A stretch of 64,000 nt of DNA from a virus: positions 1 through 64,000 of the IMG/VR virus record IMGVR_UViG_3300037827_000415. One strand, 5' to 3'. The position numbers were made by a program, and so were the translations under genes. Below are positions 3,258 through 40,792 of this stretch, one piece after another (position 1 is the first letter of the stretch; each line of letters begins with the position of its first letter). Below the pieces are notes generated by a model. The model saw nothing but the letters and a program-made list of their open reading frames with translations, was not told where the DNA came from and did not search any database.

Positions 3258-3301
3258 ACACTCAGACGCGAACGAAACACCGGAAAAGAAAGGTCAAAAC
3301 G

Positions 3302-3573: not shown

Positions 3574-3592
3574 AAAAAGTCGAAAGGTCAAA
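3574..3592 (+). repeat. Start-associated motif AAAAAGTCGAAAGGTCAA (representative copy)
   Basis: Copies at 3284, 3574, 3805, 7772, 8406 and 10071, each a few nt before an ATG, plus one at 31784. Confidence 0.85.
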
Positions 3593-3784: not shown

Positions 3785-3823
3785 TCCGTTCTCTTTCCCC
3801 CACCAAAAAGTCGAAAGGTCAAA

Positions 3824-5338: not shown

Positions 5339-5731
5339 TCACTTCGCGTTTGGATCCTTCGCGGTCGCCGGTGCGGTCGCTCCGCTTCCCCACCCGCCGC
5401 GTTCACGCTGACGCATGTAACCGCCCAGCCATTCGACGGATCGCTTGTCGTCGCGATGGAACGGATTCGACAGCGATGACAGCCCGAGCTTTGCGGCCCG
5501 TGCACCAGACTCCGCGTCACTGGCGTGGTCGTCACGGTCGTGCCAGTCGGGTCGCTCTTCCGGCTCGTCGTCCCGCGTCTGCCGCGAGTGCACGAGTTGC
5601 GGCCCGAGGACGACAGTCCCGCCGATGACCAGCCCCAAGAGCACGGCAAAGACGGCGACGACTGCGAGCAGCTTTGAGAAATCGAGATGATGCGTGTTTT
5701 CATCCGGCATGAATCGCTCCCAGTGTTCCAA
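5339..5731 (-). CDS. Membrane-anchored hypothetical protein
   Basis: Hydrophobic segment LLAVVAVFAVLLGLVIGGTVVLG. Confidence 0.55.
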   Translation of the reverse strand: MEHWERFMPDENTHHLDFSKLLAVVAVFAVLLGLVIGGTVVLGPQLVHSRQTRDDEPEERPDWHDRDDHASDAESGARAAKLGLSSLSNPFHRDDKRSVEWLGGYMRQRERGGWGSGATAPATAKDPNAK

Positions 5732-5759: not shown

Positions 5760-7016
5760 CTACGCTGTCTGCCCCGGTTTCGGCCCGACCAATGCCCACT
5801 TGCCTTCCAGCATGGCGGACAGGTTTTTCGCCTGAATCTCGGTCAGCAATTTGTGCTGTGCTCCCCACTTGATTTGGTTGCGGACGTCATCGACGACTTC
5901 GGAGTCCTTCGGCCCCTCGATGCCCTTGATCGTCTCTTCGTACATTTCCGTCGCCGTGGAACGCCATTCGGGCTCGGGAGCTGCGGCCTGCGTCGGGGCC
6001 TGAACCGGGGCTGCGGGTGAAGTGGTCTGTGCGGGTGGTGAGGGCTGAGTCGCAGTTCCCGCGTCGATGGCAGAATGGGCGGGATGCGTCGTCGGCTTTG
6101 GATCGGCCGGTGCGGCCGTCGCCGCTGGGGCCTTCGTTGCGGCCGGCCTGCCGCGTTTCTTCGCTTCTGCCGTGCCTTCGGCCGGCTTCCCGGCTGTCGA
6201 GTCACCCACGGGGGGGGACGCGGCCTGAGCGGTCTCCGGGGCTTGCGTGCGGGTTTCCAGGACGTTCGCCAGATGGTCTGATTTGGACTCGCCCGGCAGC
6301 CGGTCGGGAACGGGCCGATCATCGAATCCGTCGAAGTCCACAATTCGCCGCTGCGGATCCCCGCGTTCGGCCTGTTCATCCAGTTCGACCGCCATCGCAA
6401 GAGTCTGGCTGAGCTTCCAGACCTTTGAACTGCGGCGGATCGCCGTCTTTTTGGACATCTCCGAAAACTCGCTGAGCCAGACGTTTCGCTGCGGGATGCG
6501 AAGCAGTTCCGACTTCGGCACGACCGACAGTCCACGGCCGCCGCCGCGGGCCTCCCAGACGCAGTACGAAGCGACCACATTCTCTTGGATCATCGCCCGG
6601 TCAAGCGGAATCTCGTGCTCGATTTGCGGGCCGCTGATCGTGGCGTATTGCCGAAAGTCTTCGCCAGCCAGCACGACTTCCGCATAGACCGACTTGAGGA
6701 ACCGCGAGTTGTAGGCCAGTTCAAGAAAGCCGCGATAGCCGACAATCAACTGGCAAACCGGATTGTCCTTCCCGTATGCCACGAAATAGGCATGTCCAAG
6801 TGCCGATCCCGGAATGAGACCTAGAATCGCACAGTTCATCGCGGAGTCCGCGACGCTGCGCGGGGCGACGTTCGGGGGAAGCTTGTTCGCTTCCATCACG
6901 ACCGCGGACATGAAGTTTTCCACGTTCATGCCGGCCGGCAGTCGGCTCCGAATCGCCTCGGTGCCTTTGACGATCATCGTTGCTGCGGGATTTCTCGCCG
7001 CAATTGCTGTGCTCAC
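5760..7016 (-). CDS. recT: RecT-family ssDNA annealing protein
   Basis: AILGLIP..LGHAYFVAY..CQLIVGYRGFLELA and EMSKKTAIRR motifs; long Pro/Ala linker. Confidence 0.88.
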   Translation of the reverse strand: MSTAIAARNPAATMIVKGTEAIRSRLPAGMNVENFMSAVVMEANKLPPNVAPRSVADSAMNCAILGLIPGSALGHAYFVAYGKDNPVCQLIVGYRGFLELAYNSRFLKSVYAEVVLAGEDFRQYATISGPQIEHEIPLDRAMIQENVVASYCVWEARGGGRGLSVVPKSELLRIPQRNVWLSEFSEMSKKTAIRRSSKVWKLSQTLAMAVELDEQAERGDPQRRIVDFDGFDDRPVPDRLPGESKSDHLANVLETRTQAPETAQAASPPVGDSTAGKPAEGTAEAKKRGRPAATKAPAATAAPADPKPTTHPAHSAIDAGTATQPSPPAQTTSPAAPVQAPTQAAAPEPEWRSTATEMYEETIKGIEGPKDSEVVDDVRNQIKWGAQHKLLTEIQAKNLSAMLEGKWALVGPKPGQTA

Positions 7017-7656: not shown

Positions 7657-7690
7657 TAAGCACTTATGTCTATTCGGGATTTTTTCTTAG

Positions 7691-7751
7691 TTTCTGTAGA
7701 ACAGCAATTGACAGAATGCTTTTCGGTCGTCAAGATGCTGTTATACAGAAA
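7691..7751. promoter_or_regulatory. Symmetric operator/promoter between divergent gene runs
   Basis: TTTCTGTAGAACAGCA...TGCTGTTATACAGAAA inverted repeat (15/16), with TTGAC on both strands. Confidence 0.65.
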
Positions 7752-7792
7752 CGACGTGCGGGCAGTCAAATAAAAGTAGAAAGGTCACGGCG

Positions 7793-8999
7793 ATGGCAAA
7801 GAGAGAAATCCCGGTCGGGTCGCCCAATTCGATCGCACGCTACATCGCGAACACAGACTTCGGAGAAAACGGGTTCGCGACCTTTGCGTACCACGAAGGG
7901 ATGCCTCATGTCGTCGCGGCCGGCACCTACATGCATTGCATGGCCTACATGCAGCCCGGCTATTGCATTGTGGACGTGAAACGAGTCTGGATCGTCTGGC
8001 CGACTCGCGATCGCTTCACCGGAGAACTGGCCGAAGCCTATCCGGCACCGGAGTCCACGTAGCAATGCTGACCAAACAACACGTCGAAGAATTGCGAAAA
8101 CTGTTCTGCAAAACCACTCCCGGCATGTGGTCCGCCGATACGATTCAGGTTCGCGAAAACCGCTCGGCATACCGCGTGATGACGAATGCGAAGAGTCAGC
8201 CGATCTTCGATACGCTGAATAGCGAAGTTGCGGAAATCCATGAGGATGACGACTGCTACCGATGGGATGAAACTGGCCGGAACGATTTTGCATGGATTGA
8301 GCGAGTTCACAACGACTTTCCGGCAATTTTGCGGACGATCACGAATCTGATCGAAAAGGTCGCCGAACTGGAAGTGTTGCGTTCCGACAAATAATCAGGG
8401 TTCACAAAAAGTCGAAAGGTCAACCATGTCTCAAATCACTTCGCCCCTTTCCGCCGCCGAAATTCGCGGCATCAAGTGGGTTTTCCGTTGCTCCGACGTT
8501 CGCCTGACTGGCGACGTCGTTGAGGGCTACAGGCCGTTTGTCATGCTCGGCGTGTGCGGCGATTGGAAACCGCTGGGGAGCGTCGAATCCGTATTGCGGC
8601 GAGTCAAGGCGACGGTTGCGGCTCATGGCGGTTATTGCCCGTAGAAAGGATTCTGAGATGTGCGGCTATCCACTGCCTGACGGGCTCAAGTTGCTGGACT
8701 GTGAAGCCGGACGGTGCGACCACTGCGACGAACAGGCCGGGATTAGGGCGTTTGGGCTCGACTGGTGCCCAACTTGCTGGGACGAACTCTGTGAAGCCCG
8801 TCGCGGTTGTGGCTGCTCCGAATTTTGCGATCACACGATTGCCGAACTGGGCTGCTATTCAGTGTTCGGTCGCTTCCGGCCTCCGCCGCGGCCAATCGAG
8901 CCCGACCCGGTTGACGAGTATTACGACGAGCCAGGCGGCGGCTGGGACCAAGCGTGCGAGCGGGCCGATCTTCAACGCAAACGAGCGAAGGGAGAATAA
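7793..8999 (+). other. Small-gene cluster 2, part 1 (7793-8062, 8065-8394, 8426-8644, 8658-8999)
   Basis: Closely spaced ORFs; two are preceded by the start-associated motif; the last is Cys-rich. Confidence 0.65.
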
Positions 9000-30622: not shown

Positions 30623-30913
30623 CTATCGCCGTCGCCCCTCGCTGATCTCTTCCGCCAAATCAATCTGGTCAATCCGCCGAATGACGTGCCGGAACCAAGC
30701 GGAAATCAGTTCGCACCGCGGCCCCATATCCTCCGGCCCGCAAAACGTCTCGTACGCCCGCTCAAAGACGAAACTGATGTTCCGCTTCGGATCCGCAATC
30801 GTGATGATCACCACGGGCGGATTGCCGCAGCACCACGACCTGACCTTGAAGCCGCGATCGGCGACCCGCTCCCGCAGGTGCAGGAATCGGGCCTCGCACT
30901 CTTCGTTGGTCAT
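30623..30913 (-). CDS. Hypothetical protein
   Basis: ATG 30913 downstream of a TTGACT promoter-like site at the IS junction. Confidence 0.55.
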   Translation of the reverse strand: MTNEECEARFLHLRERVADRGFKVRSWCCGNPPVVIITIADPKRNISFVFERAYETFCGPEDMGPRCELISAWFRHVIRRIDQIDLAEEISEGRRR

Positions 30914-31155
30914 GTCCGCACCGTACCGAATCTGCCGTGGGCGAGTCAAATTTTTTCGGAATTGTATACTTAACAAACCAAGCCAAGAAGGCAGATTGAC
31001 AGGCCAAAACAGCGCAACTTATGATGCTGCATGAGGTTTCGTTGTGGCATCACGACCAGAATTCATCAAAGATATTCGGGAACACGTCGGCCGGCTTTGT
31101 TCGTCGATTGATCGCGAACTCGTCGACGAAACTCAGCGTTTTTGCGACTGGTGGG

Positions 31156-31479
31156 TCAACTGCTACAAGCCGGATTCCACCTTGCAACCAAGTCGCCCAC
31201 CTCGGCGAGACGTTCCCGCTCATCGCCCCGATTGATGCGGGCTAAGATGTGGGTGGCCCCTTTCGCGATCGCGGCAGACTTTATGTCGCTCTCCCGCGTG
31301 CAGCAGTCTCTGAGCGAATCGCCTTGCCCAAAATAAAGCGATTCCCAGTGGCCCGGTTTCCATTCGAGTGCGAAAGCGAAGTTTCCCGGCTCATCGGCAA
31401 ACTCGTTGTCTAGCGGGTAAATCCAGTACTCATATTCCCTTCCGGATTCGCCCGGATAAATAACCACCGGTATAAGCAT
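31156..31479 (-). CDS. Degenerate GIY-YIG-like protein (IS passenger)
   Basis: PGNFAF...LYFGQGDSL...E.DL...NP.C pattern. Confidence 0.55.
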   Translation of the reverse strand: MLIPVVIYPGESGREYEYWIYPLDNEFADEPGNFAFALEWKPGHWESLYFGQGDSLRDCCTRESDIKSAAIAKGATHILARINRGDERERLAEVGDLVARWNPACSS

Positions 31480-31491
31480 TGAGCCGGGCCG

Positions 31492-31659
31492 TCACTTCTT
31501 CTTTTTCGTCCGCCGCTTTGCCTTCGCCTTAGGCTGGGGGACCGGCTCGGTACTAGCCCCGCCCGGCACTTGCAGGAACTTTTCGAGAGCGGTCTCGAAA
31601 GGCAGCGGGTGAAGAGAGATTTTCTTGCCGCGATCGGATTCCGGTTCCGGTTTCGTCAT
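31492..31659 (-). CDS. 55-aa basic protein (IS passenger)
   Basis: MTKPEPESDRGKKISLHPLPFETALEKFLQV...KAKRRTKKKK; below the ORF-track cutoff. Confidence 0.55.
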   Translation of the reverse strand: MTKPEPESDRGKKISLHPLPFETALEKFLQVPGGASTEPVPQPKAKAKRRTKKKK

Positions 31660-31715
31660 GCCGGCGATTGTAGCCGAAGGGGACGGATTGAATCCAATTT
31701 TTCGCCGCGCATCCC

Positions 31716-31744
31716 TTGACGCGCAAATGGGGCAGATCTAGGCT
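31716..31744 (+). promoter_or_regulatory. Sigma70-like promoter of the IS-borne RNA unit
   Basis: TTGACG-N17-TAGGCT. Confidence 0.6.
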
Positions 31745-31758
31745 GCCCGCAGTGCGGT

Positions 31759-31868
31759 AAAAAACCGCGTTTGATTCTGAGCGAAAGTCGAAAGGTCAAC
31801 ACGCTTGAGGCGTTCCCGAGCCTCAGGCGTGCCTTTACGTCTTGGCTCGGGATTGAACGCGGTTTTTT
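31759..31868 (+). ncRNA. Long hairpin leader RNA ending in a U-tract
   Basis: 31759-31782 pairs with 31845-31868 (24 bp including G.U); inner stem CACGCTTGAGGC/GCCTCAGGCGTG. Confidence 0.6.
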
Positions 31869-31905
31869 CGTTTCTAGAAGTGAGTTTTGCGGAGAGAAGA
31901 AAAAC

Positions 31906-32005
31906 GCCGGGGTGGCGGAATTGGTAGACGCATCGGCCTTGGAAGCCGACGGGGGCCTCTTGCTAAGGGATCACCCCCGTGCGGGTTCAAATCCCGTCCC
32001 CGGCA
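31906..32005 (+). tRNA. Atypical tRNA: anticodon TGG (Pro) on a class II, Leu-like body
   Basis: Acceptor GCCGGGG/CCCCGGC+A73; D arm GGCGGAATTGGTAGACGC; anticodon arm TCGGC-CTTGGAA-GCCGA; 31-nt variable arm; T arm GCGGG-TTCAAAT-CCCGT; CCA not encoded. Confidence 0.9.
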
Positions 32006-32145
32006 TTCTCATTGTAAAATGCGAGAACCGTCAGCGGCAAACTGACGGTTCTCCTGTTCGCCGTTAGGGGGCGAACCATGCCGTAAAGTCGCGCGCATGG
32101 TACCGCTCTCGGTTTTGACACACAAGACAAAACGGGACCGGGGCC

Positions 32146-32616
32146 ATGCCTCTCGTGAAATGCCGCGATTGCGGATATTTAGCTTCGCGCATCAAGGCTG
32201 ACAATTCGCCCGTGGAGGCGGTCAGTCGCGTTCGCGATGCGGGACAATTTAGTCTTCAAGAATCAAGAGAAGTTCTGTGTTACAGGGGCTTTTCTGGCTT
32301 TCCGGTCAACGGGACGCTAACAGATCGGCCGCTGGCAGTTGCTCTTGAAAAAGAAATCGCATGTCCTGAATTCACGGTTTGGCTCAAGGGCAAAACGCCA
32401 AAAGAGCACGAAGACATGAGCATCTTAGAAAAGGTACGGCAGGAATATAGACAGTCCCAAGAGGATGCCGAGCGGAAGGCAGACCAAAAGGCAGACGCGA
32501 GGGAACGCAAAGAGGACTCACGCCACTGGCGCACGTTTTGGCTAGCGGTCGCGGCCCTAGTCGCCTCCATTGCGATCGGCATTGCGAATTTCGCGTTCAC
32601 GCTATCGAGACGCTAA
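32146..32616 (+). CDS. Zn-ribbon protein with C-terminal TM (IS passenger)
   Basis: N-terminal CRDC; C-terminal FWLAVAALVASIAIGIANFAF. Confidence 0.65.
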   Translation: MPLVKCRDCGYLASRIKADNSPVEAVSRVRDAGQFSLQESREVLCYRGFSGFPVNGTLTDRPLAVALEKEIACPEFTVWLKGKTPKEHEDMSILEKVRQEYRQSQEDAERKADQKADARERKEDSRHWRTFWLAVAALVASIAIGIANFAFTLSRR

Positions 32617-32622
32617 TTCGCC

Positions 32623-33591
32623 TCACTGAATCCCGCCCCACAACTGATCGATGCCATCTCGCAGAATTGGCTGGCGATACATGAGACGTCGGCCAGCAAT
32701 GCCGTTGATTGCGACGTCCATTCGCTGCGAGTCCTTCATCTTTCGATTGTTCCAGCGGAAGCTGAATTCATCGACGTAGCGATGCAGGTGACGCTTGCCA
32801 ATCTGGTGGAACGTGCCGTAGTGACCACGCTTGAGCAACGCGAAAAAGCTTTCGGCCGTATTCGTCGTCACGAGCGTTTCGCCACCATTCGTCCTGCGGA
32901 CGTATTCACGCTGCTTGTGCAACGAGCGGTGATGGCCACCGGCAAACTCGCGGCCGACGTGGTTATAGAGCGGCACTTCATCGGTGAACAAAGTCGAGTT
33001 GCGATCGGCGTATTTGAACAACACTTCTCGCAGCGTCGATCCTTTCAGATCGTCAACCGGCGTTGCGTGGGCTCGGCCGCCACGTTCCACGAGCAACGCC
33101 ACTGCTTTTTTTGATGTGCCGCGTCCCGCCTTGCTGACGCCCCTGTACCGGGGCTTGCCGCCGACGTAAGTTTCGTCTGCTTCCAGCTCGCCCTTCAACG
33201 CTCCGGCCAGTGGCTCTTGCTTCATCGCGTACCGAATGCGATGGGCCATGAACCATGCGGTTTTGTAGGTCACGCCGAGCATCCGATGGAGCTGATGGGC
33301 CGACACTCCCTTTTTGCTCGCGGACATCAAATGCAGGGCCAGCAGCCAAATGCGAATCTTGATGTGCCCGCGTTCCATTACGGTTCCGACCGTCACCGTG
33401 AACTGCTTGCGGCACTTCGGATTCTTGCACTTGTAAACGCCGGGCCGCGTCGATTTTCCGGCCAGCTTGATCGACTCATTCGACATGCAATGCGGGCAGG
33501 CTCGACGCTCGCCATTCGCTCCCCAGCGGGTTGCCTCAAGATAATCGCGGGCCTCATCTTCTGTCAGCTTGCTGAGTTCGGCGAAATTCAT
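32623..33591 (-). CDS. IS1595-family (ISXO2-like) DDE transposase
   Basis: Zn ribbon CPHC..CKNPKC, HTH, EADETYVGG, TDE, TNTAESFF, YVDEFSFRWN. Confidence 0.95.
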   Translation of the reverse strand: MNFAELSKLTEDEARDYLEATRWGANGERRACPHCMSNESIKLAGKSTRPGVYKCKNPKCRKQFTVTVGTVMERGHIKIRIWLLALHLMSASKKGVSAHQLHRMLGVTYKTAWFMAHRIRYAMKQEPLAGALKGELEADETYVGGKPRYRGVSKAGRGTSKKAVALLVERGGRAHATPVDDLKGSTLREVLFKYADRNSTLFTDEVPLYNHVGREFAGGHHRSLHKQREYVRRTNGGETLVTTNTAESFFALLKRGHYGTFHQIGKRHLHRYVDEFSFRWNNRKMKDSQRMDVAINGIAGRRLMYRQPILRDGIDQLWGGIQ

Positions 33592-33665
33592 TGCGGGCTC
33601 CTTTGTTGACACCCGCATTATCGGTAATTACACTTGGTTTGTCAAGTATACAATTCCGAATTTTT

Positions 33666-35513
33666 TCAGTCGCCCAGTTCGTGCCCGTTCTTTTCCGCCC
33701 AATCGTCGCCGTCAAAGTCGAAGCTTGTGGCCGCACTGTCCATTGATGCCTCTGGCTTTTCCACGTGCAGTTTTTGCCGCGATGGCTCAAACCGGCATTT
33801 CACCGTGTGCTGATGCGTCGGCCGATTCTTGTTCTTCCCGATGAATACGAAGAATTCCTTTGGGTCGTGCTTCGCGTCGATCCGGTGCGGCCAAAGTAGG
33901 AATAAGATCACATCCGCGTCGCCCTCAATCTGCCCCGACTCACGAAGGTCCGACAGCTTTGGCTTGAACGTCTCCCGCTTCTCGACTTCTCGGCCAAGCT
34001 GGGCCAGTTCGATCATCAGCACTCCGGTTTCCGTGGCGATGTGCTTGAGCATCAGGCTGGTTTCGGTGACTTGCTCGTAGCGGCTGTTTTTCTTGCCGAG
34101 CAGCAGTTGCATGTAGTCCACGACTACGCAGCGAACGCCGTGATCGCGAACGTGCTGGCGGATCGACTCGCAGGCCCGTTGCGGCGTGCCGCAGTTCTCG
34201 ACGACGTAAATCGGGGCTCGCTCGTGAAAGTGGCCGTCCACGTCCTTGAGCACGTCCTCGGAACGGTGAACCCACGCCTCTTCATTGATCGGGGTTGAAT
34301 ACTGGATCGCCCGTTTGCCCAGCATTAGGCGGGACATTTCGTCTGAGATGATTAGGATCGGGTGTCCCTCTCCGGCAATGTTGTACGCCGCTTGAAGTGC
34401 GGTAGCCGATTTTGCATGGCTCGGCCTCGCCGCGATGATGACCACCTCCGGCGGCTGCACCCCGCCGCCGATGGCATAATCCACATCACCCAATCCAAGG
34501 CTGATGAGCCCTTGCTTCCCGTCCTTCAGGCTGGCCATGTATTCGCGGGCCGACTCGTACAGCGTGTTGGACGGCGGCGGTTCAGGCGGTGCCTCGTGCT
34601 GCGGGACTCTAACCCGGTCCCACTGCATCGGCTGGACGTTTTTTAAGTACCCTCGCTCTCCAGGCACCTTGTCGGCCTGCGAAAGTTTGTGGCGAATCTC
34701 CCGCTCGTTCCACGGCGGATCGCACAGATTGGACCACTCTGCCATGACCGCGTAGGCGTCAGGCTCAGTCAGGTCGAACCCGAGCATCAGCGTGCAGGCC
34801 ACGTGGAACGCCTTGTCGTGTCCCTTCTGTCCGCTCACCGCGATCGGCATCCGGGCGACGTACTTCCGGGCTCGTTCGACGATTGCCGGCTGGCCGTAGA
34901 AGTCTGTCGGGGCTGGTGACCCAAGAGTTTGCGGCTTGAACCACTCGGCACAATAGCGATTCAGGACCGCTTGCCGCTCCATCGGTTCTTTGGGGAACTT
35001 GCCCACTCGCTTGCCCGTGACGGCGAAGTATCGCAGATGGTCGTAGACTTCGATGCCCGGCTCTTTCTCGCCGACCGTGGCGACGCCTTCGACTTTGATT
35101 TTCTTGCCGGAGTCCATCGGGGCTTTCGCCCGAATGAACATTTTCGCCCCCGTGCCGCTGGGGCTGAGTTCGGTGTATGTGTTGAAGTCCGACATGATTT
35201 GCCGAGCCCAGTCGGCCCACTCGCCGGTTTCGAGGTTGCGGCAACCGTCCAGGTCGATGCCGCAGAATTCGTCTTCCGCGGTGAAGACGAATCCGATGCC
35301 CGACCATCGGCCGGTGATCCGATTGGCCGTGACGGCGGATTTGAAGTTGCACCAAGTCTGCGGATCATTCGACTTGGCTAACTGGCCAGAGAACACGCTG
35401 TATGGGAGCTTTGTCGGCTTGTCGCCGTCGCGGGTCACGATTGTCCAGACCAGCCACTGACGAAGTTCCTGTAACGCTGTCGGCACGCCTTCGGGACAGA
35501 CCTGGATCAGCAT
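33666..35513 (-). CDS. Primase-polymerase (AEP-like) fused to DnaB-like helicase
   Basis: GIDLDGC and ELSPSGTG at the N-terminus; VVDYMQL, AQLGR, SDLRESGQIEGDAD at the C-terminus. Confidence 0.9.
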   Translation of the reverse strand: MLIQVCPEGVPTALQELRQWLVWTIVTRDGDKPTKLPYSVFSGQLAKSNDPQTWCNFKSAVTANRITGRWSGIGFVFTAEDEFCGIDLDGCRNLETGEWADWARQIMSDFNTYTELSPSGTGAKMFIRAKAPMDSGKKIKVEGVATVGEKEPGIEVYDHLRYFAVTGKRVGKFPKEPMERQAVLNRYCAEWFKPQTLGSPAPTDFYGQPAIVERARKYVARMPIAVSGQKGHDKAFHVACTLMLGFDLTEPDAYAVMAEWSNLCDPPWNEREIRHKLSQADKVPGERGYLKNVQPMQWDRVRVPQHEAPPEPPPSNTLYESAREYMASLKDGKQGLISLGLGDVDYAIGGGVQPPEVVIIAARPSHAKSATALQAAYNIAGEGHPILIISDEMSRLMLGKRAIQYSTPINEEAWVHRSEDVLKDVDGHFHERAPIYVVENCGTPQRACESIRQHVRDHGVRCVVVDYMQLLLGKKNSRYEQVTETSLMLKHIATETGVLMIELAQLGREVEKRETFKPKLSDLRESGQIEGDADVILFLLWPHRIDAKHDPKEFFVFIGKNKNRPTHQHTVKCRFEPSRQKLHVEKPEASMDSAATSFDFDGDDWAEKNGHELGD

Positions 35514-39842: not shown

Positions 39843-40780
39843 TGCACAGTCAACGCCAGCGGCTTCGGGGCTTTCACAATTCTTGTGTCCACTTTAACAA
39901 ACGACGAAACAACATGCTCAGCGATGCTCTGCTCTTGCCGCCGAAACGCGGTCCCGTCGCCCAATATGCCGTACTGAGCGTCGGCCATTTCAAACAGCCA
40001 CTTTGACTTGATCGCGGCCTTCCGGGCGTCATTCGCTTTGTTCGATTGGCCAAGGGCTTCGTACTCGGCCTTCAGCAGCTTCGACTCATCGCTCAGGTCG
40101 ACGGCCTTCCCGTCCTTCAGACCGAACATGCTCTTGATCGTTCCGAGCGTCGAAGCGTGATCCCACGACGGCTCCGGGGCTTCGTGGTCGGCGAGCTTCC
40201 GCACGAATTCGCGTTCAATCTCGACCATGCTCGCGATCAGCCGCTCGTTTCGCTGGACGCGATAGATTTTGAACGCGGCACCGATTATGACCGGCACCCA
40301 GATGACTTCCAATTCAAGCACGGCACACGCCTGTTGACATTGGACGTTATAGCTCGCCGGAATGTCGTCGGTCCCCGGCTTGCCCCATTGATCGGCCATG
40401 AACTGATTGGTCCGCTTGGCTTCGATGCCGTGCGGCTCCGCGATCACGAGTCCGTCGGGACTGACAGTCATCCAAGGCCATTTCTTGCTGCGATAACTGG
40501 GCGGCTTTTGTGTGTAGACCTTCGTGCCGGTTTTAGCTCGGAACATCCGCAGAATCGCGGGCTCGAAAAACTTCCCCATAAGCATCGAGTCGTTTTCGTC
40601 GGGCTCGGGGTCGAGCCCCAGCTTGCGGCGGTAGATGCTCAACGGCGTGTCGTATTCGCTCAGCCCGCAGACTGCCGCAGCTTCGGAACCGCCGACGCTG
40701 TTTTCGCGGGCCGTGTGCCATGCAAGAGAGCCTTGGGCGGCGACGACTTCGGCGGAGTCGAATTGCGGGAAGTTCGGCAT
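39839..40780 (-). CDS. YqaJ-like viral recombinase exonuclease
   Basis: W...R..SVGGSEAAAV, GKFFEP, VSPDG, IEAK, YNVQCQ. Confidence 0.9.
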   Translation of the reverse strand: MPNFPQFDSAEVVAAQGSLAWHTARENSVGGSEAAAVCGLSEYDTPLSIYRRKLGLDPEPDENDSMLMGKFFEPAILRMFRAKTGTKVYTQKPPSYRSKKWPWMTVSPDGLVIAEPHGIEAKRTNQFMADQWGKPGTDDIPASYNVQCQQACAVLELEVIWVPVIIGAAFKIYRVQRNERLIASMVEIEREFVRKLADHEAPEPSWDHASTLGTIKSMFGLKDGKAVDLSDESKLLKAEYEALGQSNKANDARKAAIKSKWLFEMADAQYGILGDGTAFRRQEQSIAEHVVSSFVKVDTRIVKAPKPLALTVQ

Positions 40781-40792
40781 GACGAAACCGAT

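What the first reader, a model, noticed from the sequence alone, without database searches (positions are those of the whole stretch)
31751..31870. IS-borne 110-nt hairpin sequesters the same 17-mer that precedes phage genes
Seen: AAAGTCGAAAGGTCAAC at 31784-31800 is identical to 8408-8424 and matches the copies at 3574 and 3805 over 16 nt. Here it is not followed by ATG. It lies in a long stem opposite GCCTTTACGTCTT, and the hairpin ends in a U-tract upstream of the odd tRNA. A competing short hairpin GCGGT-AAAAA-ACCGC sits at the 5' end. Inference: an attenuator that senses phage transcripts or the motif-binding factor could license tRNA read-through only during phage gene expression. Alternatively the cargo was captured from a related phage.
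Basis: partly seen in the sequence, partly recalled or inferred. Interest (0 to 1): 0.7.

Follow-up and report, generated by a model that had tools for sequence, protein, structure and literature searches.

The report
Terminator-like hairpin before transposon tRNA
A jumping gene that landed in a soil phage carries an unusually long RNA hairpin just ahead of its odd tRNA gene; the hairpin buries an exact copy of the ribosome-binding leader of the phage's own early genes, and it most likely works as a transcription stop or insulator, while the proposed phage-sensing switch has no evidence yet.

Summary
No shuffle of the window reached four copies.

In the phage the motif is an extended Shine-Dalgarno leader. 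Six plus-strand genes between 3.2 and 10.1 kb carry AAAGGTCAA 1-4 nt before ATG, with the SD mostly unpaired.

The fifth copy lies in the 5' arm of a 46-bp, 110-nt hairpin (31759-31868, -67.6 kcal/mol). There the SD is fully paired. The stem base is A6-CCGCG...CGCGG-U6. All five wobble pairs fit the plus strand only.

The hairpin sits inside a verified IS1595 element (30957-33658), 37 nt before the odd tRNA and about 8 nt after a weak promoter candidate. A 5-bp 5' hairpin competes with the terminator base.

No homologue of the hairpin was found in Rfam, in about 160 related IS loci, in 15 upstream regions of similar tRNAs, or in 800 soil-phylum genomes. The 16-mer occurs elsewhere only at about chance level and never as a recurrent RBS.

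Best reading: a terminator or insulator leader containing phage-derived sequence. A regulated, phage-sensing attenuator is possible but unsupported. Expression could not be shown.

Earlier notes of this scan cover the tRNA and the IS, and one flags this same stretch; no hairpin like it was noted on other DNA.

The parts
30949..30956 (.). left copy of the 8-bp target-site duplication AATTTTTT
30957..30982 (+). left terminal inverted repeat of the IS1595-family element (CGGAATTGTATACTTAACAAACCAAG)
   Evidence: 25/26 match to the right repeat
30996..31025 (+). strong sigma-70-like promoter match (TTGACA-18-TATGAT, 11/12) just inside the left end, pointing toward the hairpin
   Evidence: consensus match only
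31156..31479 (-). 107-aa passenger ORF; a homologue follows the transposase directly in related locus L030
   Evidence: 36% identity over 99 aa, E 1e-12
31492..31659 (-). 55-aa passenger ORF; weak look-alikes sit downstream of transposases in L106 and L156
31716..31744 (+). candidate promoter TTGACG-17-TAGGCT (-10 keeps T1, A2, T6 only); predicted start near 31751
   Evidence: read from the sequence; not flagged by the scan, so weak
31754..31768 (+). short 5' hairpin GCGGU-AAAAA-ACCGC that competes with the base of the long stem
   Evidence: -7.6 kcal/mol alone; forcing it leaves CGCGG-U6 unpaired and costs 9 kcal/mol overall
31759..31868 (+). 110-nt hairpin, 46 bp, 8-nt loop, stem base A6-CCGCG / CGCGG-U6
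   Evidence: -67.6 kcal/mol; five G.U pairs and no A.C on the + strand
31784..31800 (+). 17-mer AAAGTCGAAAGGTCAAC, an exact copy of the phage early-gene RBS leader, fully sequestered here
   Evidence: unpaired probability of GAAAGG 0.00-0.02
31805..31927 (+). possible 40-codon TTG frame, 9 nt after GAAAGG; it crosses the 3' arm and the U-tract and stops inside the tRNA D-arm
   Evidence: no evidence that it is translated
31831..31843 (+). GCCTTTACGTCTT, the imperfect inverted copy of the motif on the 3' arm
31863..31868 (+). U6 tract directly after the CGCGG stem base; the minus strand has a matching U6 from the A6 at 31759-31764
31906..32005 (+). odd tRNA: Leu-type body, UGG anticodon, 31-nt variable arm
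   Evidence: RF00005, 60 bits; missed by ARAGORN
32023..32053 (+). perfect 12-bp hairpin after the tRNA; the U-rich tail is on the minus strand only
32146..32616 (+). 156-aa passenger ORF with no relative in 5.8 billion proteins
32623..33618 (-). IS1595-family DDE transposase
   Evidence: PF12762 E 7.7e-33, PF12760 E 3.4e-10
33633..33658 (-). right terminal inverted repeat
33659..33666 (.). right copy of the target-site duplication AATTTTTT
3576..3592 (+). phage copy of the motif (16/17), 3 nt before the ATG of a 62-aa gene
3807..3823 (+). phage copy of the motif (16/17), directly before the ATG of a 111-aa gene
8408..8424 (+). phage copy of the motif (17/17), 1 nt before the ATG of a 72-aa gene

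Best explanation
The stretch is the transcribed leader of a tRNA cassette carried as a passenger by an IS1595-family element that recently landed in a soil phage.

The leader folds into one 46-bp RNA hairpin. Its base (A6-CCGCG / CGCGG-U6) has the shape of a factor-independent terminator on both strands. I think it works mainly as a strong stop or insulator. It would hold back plus-strand transcription coming from the weak promoter 8 nt upstream and from the strong promoter at the left IS end. It would also stop minus-strand transcripts that run antisense through the tRNA. The unusual tRNA would then be made only by limited read-through.

The 17-mer is a copy of the resident phage's early-gene ribosome-binding leader. 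It became part of the 5' arm and is completely paired there. It is most likely inherited phage-type sequence, not a sensor.

Shown here: the motif identity, the fold, the strand asymmetry, the IS borders and the position. Inferred: the promoter, termination, read-through and the origin of the motif.
For: - The hairpin is far more stable than shuffles (z = -7.8) and more stable on the + strand (-72.8 against -54.5 kcal/mol). All 5 wobble pairs are G.U on + and would be A.C on -.
- The stem base is CGCGG followed by UUUUUUCGUUUCU on +, and by U6 on -.
- I saw no acceptable -10 between the hairpin and the tRNA and the scan flagged no promoter there, so the tRNA must be reached through the hairpin.
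- The cassette lies between the transposase and two ORFs. In relatives these ORFs or their look-alikes follow the transposase on the same strand. The hairpin therefore marks the edge of an inserted module.
- GAAAGG-type SDs precede 17 ORFs of at least 45 codons in the contig, and the extended leader precedes only phage genes. None of the IS's own ORFs has it.
- In the phage genes the SD is mostly open; in the hairpin it is closed.
Against: - A 46-bp stem is several times longer than ordinary intrinsic terminators, and a promoter followed at once by a terminator is odd for a simple insulator.
- Every non-wobble imperfection of the stem (U.U, bulged A, unpaired UCAA, GA/G loop) falls in the motif region. 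The 5' arm keeps 17/17 identity to the phage leader, including four unpaired bases. This looks like constraint on the motif itself and not like a decaying relic.
- Identity to the phage stops exactly at the motif edges, which is unlike a recently captured fragment.
- The wobble asymmetry is only 5 of 5 (one-sided p about 0.03).
- No transcript ends were seen.
Confidence: 0.4

Rival explanations
1. Regulated attenuator. The exposed RBS-like leader on the nascent 5' arm is bound by a 30S subunit, which could start at TTG 31805 and translate a 40-codon frame across the U-tract as in pyrBI-type coupling, or by a phage factor that recognises the early-gene leader. Binding would keep the hairpin from closing and let RNA polymerase run into the tRNA only when that partner is available.
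For: The 17/17 copy of a functional phage initiation leader includes unpaired bases, and the stem defects cluster there. A TTG lies at 9-nt spacing, and its frame covers the 3' arm and the U-tract. A mutually exclusive 5' hairpin shares ACCGC with the terminator base.
Against: There are no homologues, so nothing is conserved or covarying. The time window before the apical stem closes is only about 25 nt of transcription (inference). The alternative fold is 9 kcal/mol worse. The TTG frame has no coding signal and ends inside the tRNA. No candidate RNA-binding factor was found; the six motif-bearing genes have no PHROG family.
Confidence: 0.15
2. Stand-alone small RNA or double-stranded RNA substrate. 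Promoter plus hairpin plus U-tract would make a roughly 118-nt RNA that acts by itself. It could be a decoy copy of the phage leader, or be cut by RNase III at the central bubble as in phage T7 or lambda processing sites.
For: The layout of promoter candidate, structured RNA and U-tract is that of a small-RNA gene. More than 20 bp of helix lie on each side of an internal bubble. The strand asymmetry favours an RNA.
Against: Almost no single-stranded seed is available. Duplex predictions of the 3' arm or the apical loop with the six phage RBS regions and with the transposase, p55 and orf156 5' regions are no better than shuffles; most z values lie between -1.9 and +1.2, with single outliers of -2.9 and -2.4. 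There is no complementarity to the tRNA. No Rfam family matches.
Confidence: 0.15
3. DNA-level palindrome with no RNA role: a by-product of inverted duplication or recombination when the tRNA module entered the IS, or a protein-binding or replication hairpin.
For: The two arms are clearly homologous over their whole length, including a diverged inverted copy of the motif. The hairpin lies at the edge of the inserted module. Other long palindromes occur in related loci.
Against: All five transition differences between the arms are G.U on the tRNA-coding strand and none is A.C. A U-tract and an A-tract flank it exactly. The palindromes in other loci are unrelated GC-rich repeat elements with equal energy on both strands.
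Confidence: 0.12
4. The shared 17-mer is coincidence or generic low-complexity sequence (two AAAGKTC heptamers) and means nothing.
For: The 16-mer occurs in at least 120 genome loci and 19 viral contigs, often inside AAAGTC/AAAGGTC heptamer arrays.
Against: Within this window 0 of 100 shuffles give 4 copies. An exact 17-mer match between the 2.7-kb element and the rest of the contig has blastn E = 0.011, and it hits the most repeated RBS leader of the phage, on the same strand. The hits elsewhere are about what chance gives for databases of that size and are in unrelated contexts.
Confidence: 0.03

Closest known systems
Bidirectional intrinsic (Rho-independent) terminators
   Same: A G+C-rich stem base is directly followed by a U-tract and preceded by an A-tract, so both strands read hairpin plus U-run.
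   Different: The stem is 46 bp and 110 nt instead of about 5-14 bp. It sits right after a promoter and before a tRNA, not between convergent genes. It contains a complete RBS leader.
Leader attenuators that use translation coupling (E. coli pyrBI leader; from general knowledge)
   Same: There is a promoter-proximal terminator, a possible short frame that runs across the terminator, and an alternative upstream hairpin.
   Different: Here the SD and start codon lie inside the terminator's own 5' arm. The controlled gene is a tRNA. No conservation or leader-peptide signal is available.
RNase III processing hairpins of phage T7 early mRNAs and the lambda N leader (from general knowledge)
   Same: A long helix is interrupted by an asymmetric internal loop, and an RBS is sequestered in the stem.
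   Different: No downstream ORF would be activated by processing. Cleavage is untested. No sequence family is shared.
IS10 RNA-OUT and plasmid antisense hairpin RNAs
   Same: An IS-encoded, bulged stem-loop RNA with its own promoter.
   Different: It is not antisense to the transposase start, and no trans complementarity above background was found.
IS1595-family elements with passenger genes, including tRNA passengers noted earlier in this scan
   Same: The transposase family, repeat type and 8-bp duplication are the same. A convergent odd tRNA lies downstream of the transposase, as in L021, L076 and L330 (also L161, whose IS ends were not defined).
   Different: None of the relatives examined has this hairpin, and strong structure upstream of the tRNA is not a family trait.

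Membership tests
Intrinsic terminator | G+C-rich stem ending directly at a run of U | tested here: met
   CGCGG (31858-31862) is followed by U6 and then CGUUUCU. The minus strand shows the same shape.
Intrinsic terminator | Compact hairpin (stem about 5-14 bp, loop 3-8 nt) | tested here: not met
   46 bp with internal loops; not called by the consensus scan.
Intrinsic terminator | Transcripts end in the U-tract | tested here: inconclusive
   Only assembled contigs of metatranscriptome runs could be laid, and these cannot show ends. A 50-kb contig suggests DNA carry-over.
Transcription attenuator or riboswitch-type leader | Mutually exclusive terminator and anti-terminator folds | tested here: met
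   GCGGU/ACCGC (-7.6 kcal/mol) excludes the terminator base. The forced fold is -60.8 against -69.8 kcal/mol.
Transcription attenuator or riboswitch-type leader | An identifiable sensor (leader peptide, ligand pocket or protein site) conserved among relatives | tested here: not met
   No relatives of the leader were found anywhere. The TTG frame is unsupported.
Any Rfam family | Score at or above the gathering threshold | tested here: not met
   Only the tRNA passes. The best hit on the hairpin is a plant miRNA precursor model at 20.5 bits against a threshold of 245.
Trans-acting antisense RNA (RNA-OUT type, or the tRNA-pairing small RNA noted in e1-3800235) | Extended complementarity to a target (transposase start, tRNA or phage RBS) | tested here: not met
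   The longest Watson-Crick run to the tRNA is 8 nt, and the duplex energy is no better than shuffles. Target z-scores are unremarkable.
IS1595-family insertion sequence (for 'IS-borne') | DDE_Tnp_IS1595 transposase, terminal inverted repeats and 8-bp target duplication | tested here: met
Functional Shine-Dalgarno leader (for the 17-mer) | Lies 4-10 nt before a start codon of a real ORF and is accessible | tested here: met
   Met for the phage copies. Not met for the hairpin copy: no ATG, and SD unpaired probability at most 0.02.

The most novel reading that the evidence does not exclude
The hairpin is a gate that mimics the phage's early-gene translation leader. When 30S subunits or a phage leader-binding factor catch the 17-mer on the nascent RNA, the terminator cannot close, and the transposon's code-bending tRNA (Leu body, Pro anticodon) is made. 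A potentially toxic tRNA would then be tied to the infection programme of the phage that carries the transposon.
Probability: 0.08. Interest if true: 0.75.

Novelty: new variant of a known kind. Interest (0 to 1): 0.35.

Why it matters
IS1595 elements that carry tRNAs with mismatched body and anticodon recur in this scan and in the loci fetched here. How such a risky tRNA is kept in check is unknown. This element offers one concrete candidate control: an exceptionally long terminator-type hairpin between promoter and tRNA. The exact phage RBS leader inside it is a physical link between the transposon cargo and the phage it rides in. If the hairpin only insulates, this is an ordinary leader with an odd history. 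If read-through depends on the motif, it would be a new way for mobile DNA to couple a tRNA to a virus's expression programme. The question can be answered with a simple termination assay.

Tried and rejected
- **Rfam:** searches at the gathering threshold and at E up to 10 found no family for the hairpin.
- **Phage database:** blastn of 31400-33800 against 50,697 phage records gave no match.
- **Motif in viral contigs:** the 16-mer has 19 single hits in unrelated contexts, none before an ATG.
- **Motif in species genomes:** Of 121 hits, 10 are followed by ATG, which I estimate is about the chance rate. The best-looking one lies inside an efflux-pump gene. Five soil genomes holding the motif have only 1-2 copies of the 13-mer core. 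No genome sampled uses it as a common RBS. The host itself is unknown and may not be in the collection.
- **Transposase relatives:** about 160 loci, all at or below 54% identity over the full-length protein. blastn and local alignment found no hairpin homologue. A shared CGCGTTTGA...TTGAACGCG in L021 is a 9-mer on the opposite strand relative to the tRNA, and I treat it as chance.
- **Long palindromes in related loci:** these are unrelated GC-rich repeat elements.
- **Similar tRNAs:** a pattern search gave 59 matches, of which about 11 are real tRNAs. Strong structure upstream of such tRNAs is not a general trait: median percentile 0.23, and 3 of 15 at or below 0.05. The 120-nt window used cuts our own hairpin.
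- **orf156:** no relative in viral contigs.
- **Passenger and motif-bearing proteins:** no PHROG family for any. The IS passenger ORFs also have no Pfam family.
- **Hairpin DNA in 400 Acidobacteriota-side and 400 Verrucomicrobiota-side genomes:** only 20-35-nt matches inside unrelated coding regions.
- **Sequencing runs:** two metatranscriptome runs hold the whole region as contigs identical to the window, one inside a 50-kb contig. Two others hold short low-depth pieces. This does not show transcription, strand or ends.
- **Pairing tests:** pairing of the leader with the tRNA, and of the 3' arm or loop with the phage RBS sites, the transposase, p55 and orf156 5' regions, is no better than shuffles.
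- **Other classes considered and dropped:**
  - Integron attC site: the core sites RYYYAAC and GTTRRRY are absent.
  - Retron msd: no reverse transcriptase was recognised among the element's ORFs.
  - YrlA-type Y RNA: different architecture.
- **Literature:** a search for IS1595 tRNA passengers found nothing relevant.

Full report
**What is there.** The window is the first 64 kb of a single 82,866-bp viral contig. The 17-mer AAAGTCGAAAGGTCAAC is exact at 8408-8424 and 31784-31800, and 16/17 at 3576-3592 and 3807-3823. All copies are on the plus strand. The expected count is 0.04, and no shuffle of 100 reached four. In the whole contig a further copy with three mismatches lies at 7773. The core AAAGGTCAA also occurs at 3289 and 10073.

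**What the motif is in the phage.** Each of these six sites lies 1-4 nt before the ATG of a small plus-strand ORF. These ORFs show the usual codon-position G+C pattern. GAAAGG precedes the start codon of 17 ORFs of at least 45 codons across the contig, among them dnaB and the 418-aa gene at 5760-7016. GAAAGG is therefore a common Shine-Dalgarno of this phage, and CAAAAAGTCGAAAGGTCAA is an extended leader used by a cluster of genes at 3-10 kb. In 141-nt folds around the six genes, most SD bases are largely unpaired. The six proteins have no PHROG family.

**The hairpin.** Positions 31759-31868 fold into one hairpin of 46 bp with an 8-nt loop, at -67.6 kcal/mol. In a 136-nt frame the energy is -72.8 with z = -7.8 on the plus strand, against -54.5 and z = -4.9 on the minus strand.

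The difference between strands comes from five G.U pairs. All five are on the plus strand, and no A.C mismatch occurs there. This is modest evidence (5 of 5) that the structure matters as plus-strand RNA.

The lower 24 bp and the upper 12 bp are uninterrupted. Every non-wobble defect lies where the 17-mer sits: a GA/G loop, a U.U mismatch, a bulged A and four unpaired bases UCAA. The 3' arm carries a diverged inverted copy of the motif. The 5' arm matches the phage leader 17/17. The SD in this copy has an unpaired probability of at most 0.02.

The base of the stem is A6-CCGCG / CGCGG-U6, followed by CGUUUCU. This is terminator geometry on both strands.

**Surroundings.** The hairpin lies in a complete IS1595-family element:
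- 26-bp terminal repeats at 30957-30982 and 33633-33658, with one mismatch;
- an exact 8-bp duplication AATTTTTT;
- a transposase at 32623-33618 on the minus strand, with PF12762 at E 7.7e-33.

Rfam finds a tRNA at 31906-32005, 37 nt after the U-tract. ARAGORN misses it. A perfect 12-bp hairpin follows the tRNA, then a 156-aa ORF with no relatives.

On the other side, TTGACG-17-TAGGCT (31716-31744) is the only promoter-like site close to the hairpin. Its -10 keeps only T1, A2 and T6, and the consensus scan did not flag it. The same scan flags a strong inward promoter at the left IS end, and another on the minus strand just after the tRNA. I saw no acceptable -10 between the hairpin and the tRNA, and the scan flagged none.

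If transcription starts near 31751, the RNA begins with GCGGU-A5-ACCGC. This 5-bp hairpin (-7.6 kcal/mol) uses the ACCGC that the terminator base needs. Forcing it leaves CGCGG-U6 unpaired and costs 9 kcal/mol overall.

**History of the cassette.** The 107-aa ORF at 31156-31479 has a homologue directly after the transposase in L030. The 55-aa ORF has weak look-alikes in the same position in other relatives. The plus-strand block of promoter, hairpin, tRNA and orf156 therefore looks like an insertion between the transposase and its usual followers, with the hairpin at the edge of the block.

None of the IS's own ORFs uses the phage leader. Identity to the phage stops exactly at the ends of the 17-mer.

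**Search for relatives.** None was found for the hairpin.
- Rfam has no matching family.
- Phage records give no match.
- About 160 loci encode related transposases, all at or below 54% identity over the full-length protein. None matches by blastn or local alignment.
- Four of these loci (L021, L076, L108, L161) carry a convergent tRNA near the transposase.
- A pattern search for Leu-type D-arms with a UGG anticodon loop brought about eleven more real tRNAs, three of them next to IS1595 transposase sequence.
- Some of these tRNAs have a hairpin just upstream. As a group, however, their upstream 120 nt are not more structured than random windows of the same loci: median percentile 0.23, and 3 of 15 at or below 0.05.
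- 800 genomes sampled from two soil phyla gave only short matches inside coding regions.

The hairpin is specific to this element. No covariation test is possible.

**Is the motif a general host RBS?** The 16-mer occurs in 19 viral contigs and in at least 120 loci of species genomes. All are unrelated contexts: heptamer AAAGTC/AAAGGTC arrays, an enterobacterial plasmid family, and coding regions. My rough estimate for databases of this size puts these counts near chance. Five soil genomes holding it have one or two copies of the 13-mer core.

**Tests of trans-acting models.** The leader has no complementarity to the tRNA beyond 8 nt, and its duplex energy is no better than shuffles. The 3' arm and the apical loop pair with the six phage RBS regions and with the transposase, p55 and orf156 5' regions no better than with shuffled targets. 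Single outliers reach z = -2.9 and -2.4 among 18 tests. If the element were an antisense regulator of the leader, the 3' arm should be the perfect copy. In fact the 5' arm is.

**Expression.** Two soil or rhizosphere metatranscriptome runs hold the region as contigs identical to the window, one inside a 50-kb contig. This is what DNA carry-over looks like. Contigs show neither ends nor strand. I make no claim about transcription.

The most economical reading is a terminator-type leader that insulates the odd tRNA from flanking transcription in both directions and lets through only some read-through. It would be built from, or including, phage-type sequence (confidence about 0.4).

Two facts sit uneasily with a mere relic and keep a regulated gate alive as a minority reading: the motif is kept exact on one arm even where it is unpaired, and the stem defects cluster there. 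Neither the ribosome-coupled nor the factor-coupled version has any positive evidence.

The finding is a lineage-specific variant of a known kind of element. Its interest is moderate, mainly because of what it controls.

Noticed in passing
L021:5050-5133; L076:5090-5162 and 5624-5705; L108:1790-1878; L161:1860-1943; L330, L332, L306: Distant IS1595 transposase relatives also have tRNA genes close by, mostly convergent and just downstream of the transposase. They include Leu-type bodies with a UGG anticodon loop (L108, L330, L332, L306), an apparent UUA (ochre) anticodon in L076 and a CUA-like loop in L161. In L021 and L076 the tRNAs lie inside 2.8-2.9-kb elements bounded by their own inverted repeats.
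   Followed up: partly
window 30915-30956 joined to 33667-33705: The reconstructed empty site has a 7-bp hairpin (GGGCGAC...GTCGCCC on the minus strand) overlapping the dnaB stop codon, and the duplicated AATTTTTT is its loop.
   Followed up: partly
window 30957-30964 and 33651-33658 versus 31916-31923: The first 8 nt of the IS terminal repeat (CGGAATTG) equal the D-arm of the passenger tRNA (GGCGGAATTGGTAGAC), and the next bases are similar. An 8-mer match of this kind has roughly a 5% chance, so it may mean nothing.
   Followed up: no
window 31648-31663 versus 40775-40790 (minus strand): A second exact 16-mer (CGGTTTCGTCATGCCG) is shared between the IS and the phage. In both places it covers a start codon: the 55-aa IS ORF on one strand and the 313-aa phage ORF on the other. 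blastn E is 0.045, so possibly chance.
   Followed up: no
window 30900-33700: Sigma-70-like promoter matches are enriched in the element (7 found, 1.0 expected). One sits in each end pointing inward, and one on the minus strand at 32040-32011 would make an RNA antisense to the tRNA that ends at the 110-nt hairpin.
   Followed up: no
L180, L190-L193, L197, L204, L209, L259, L286 and others: The 16-mer often falls inside long tandem arrays of AAAGTC/AAAGGTC-type heptamers in Bacteroidales, Patescibacteria, Anaerolineales and other MAGs. What these arrays are was not examined.
   Followed up: no
window 7690-7752: A 63-nt imperfect palindrome lies about 20 nt upstream of the weaker motif copy at 7773 and its 89-aa gene. 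Its sequence is unrelated to the IS hairpin.
   Followed up: partly
window 33592-33618 (minus strand): The promoter match in the right terminal repeat overlaps the annotated transposase ATG. The protein's tenth residue is Met and is preceded by AAGGA. The real start may therefore be Met10 with a conventional SD.
   Followed up: no
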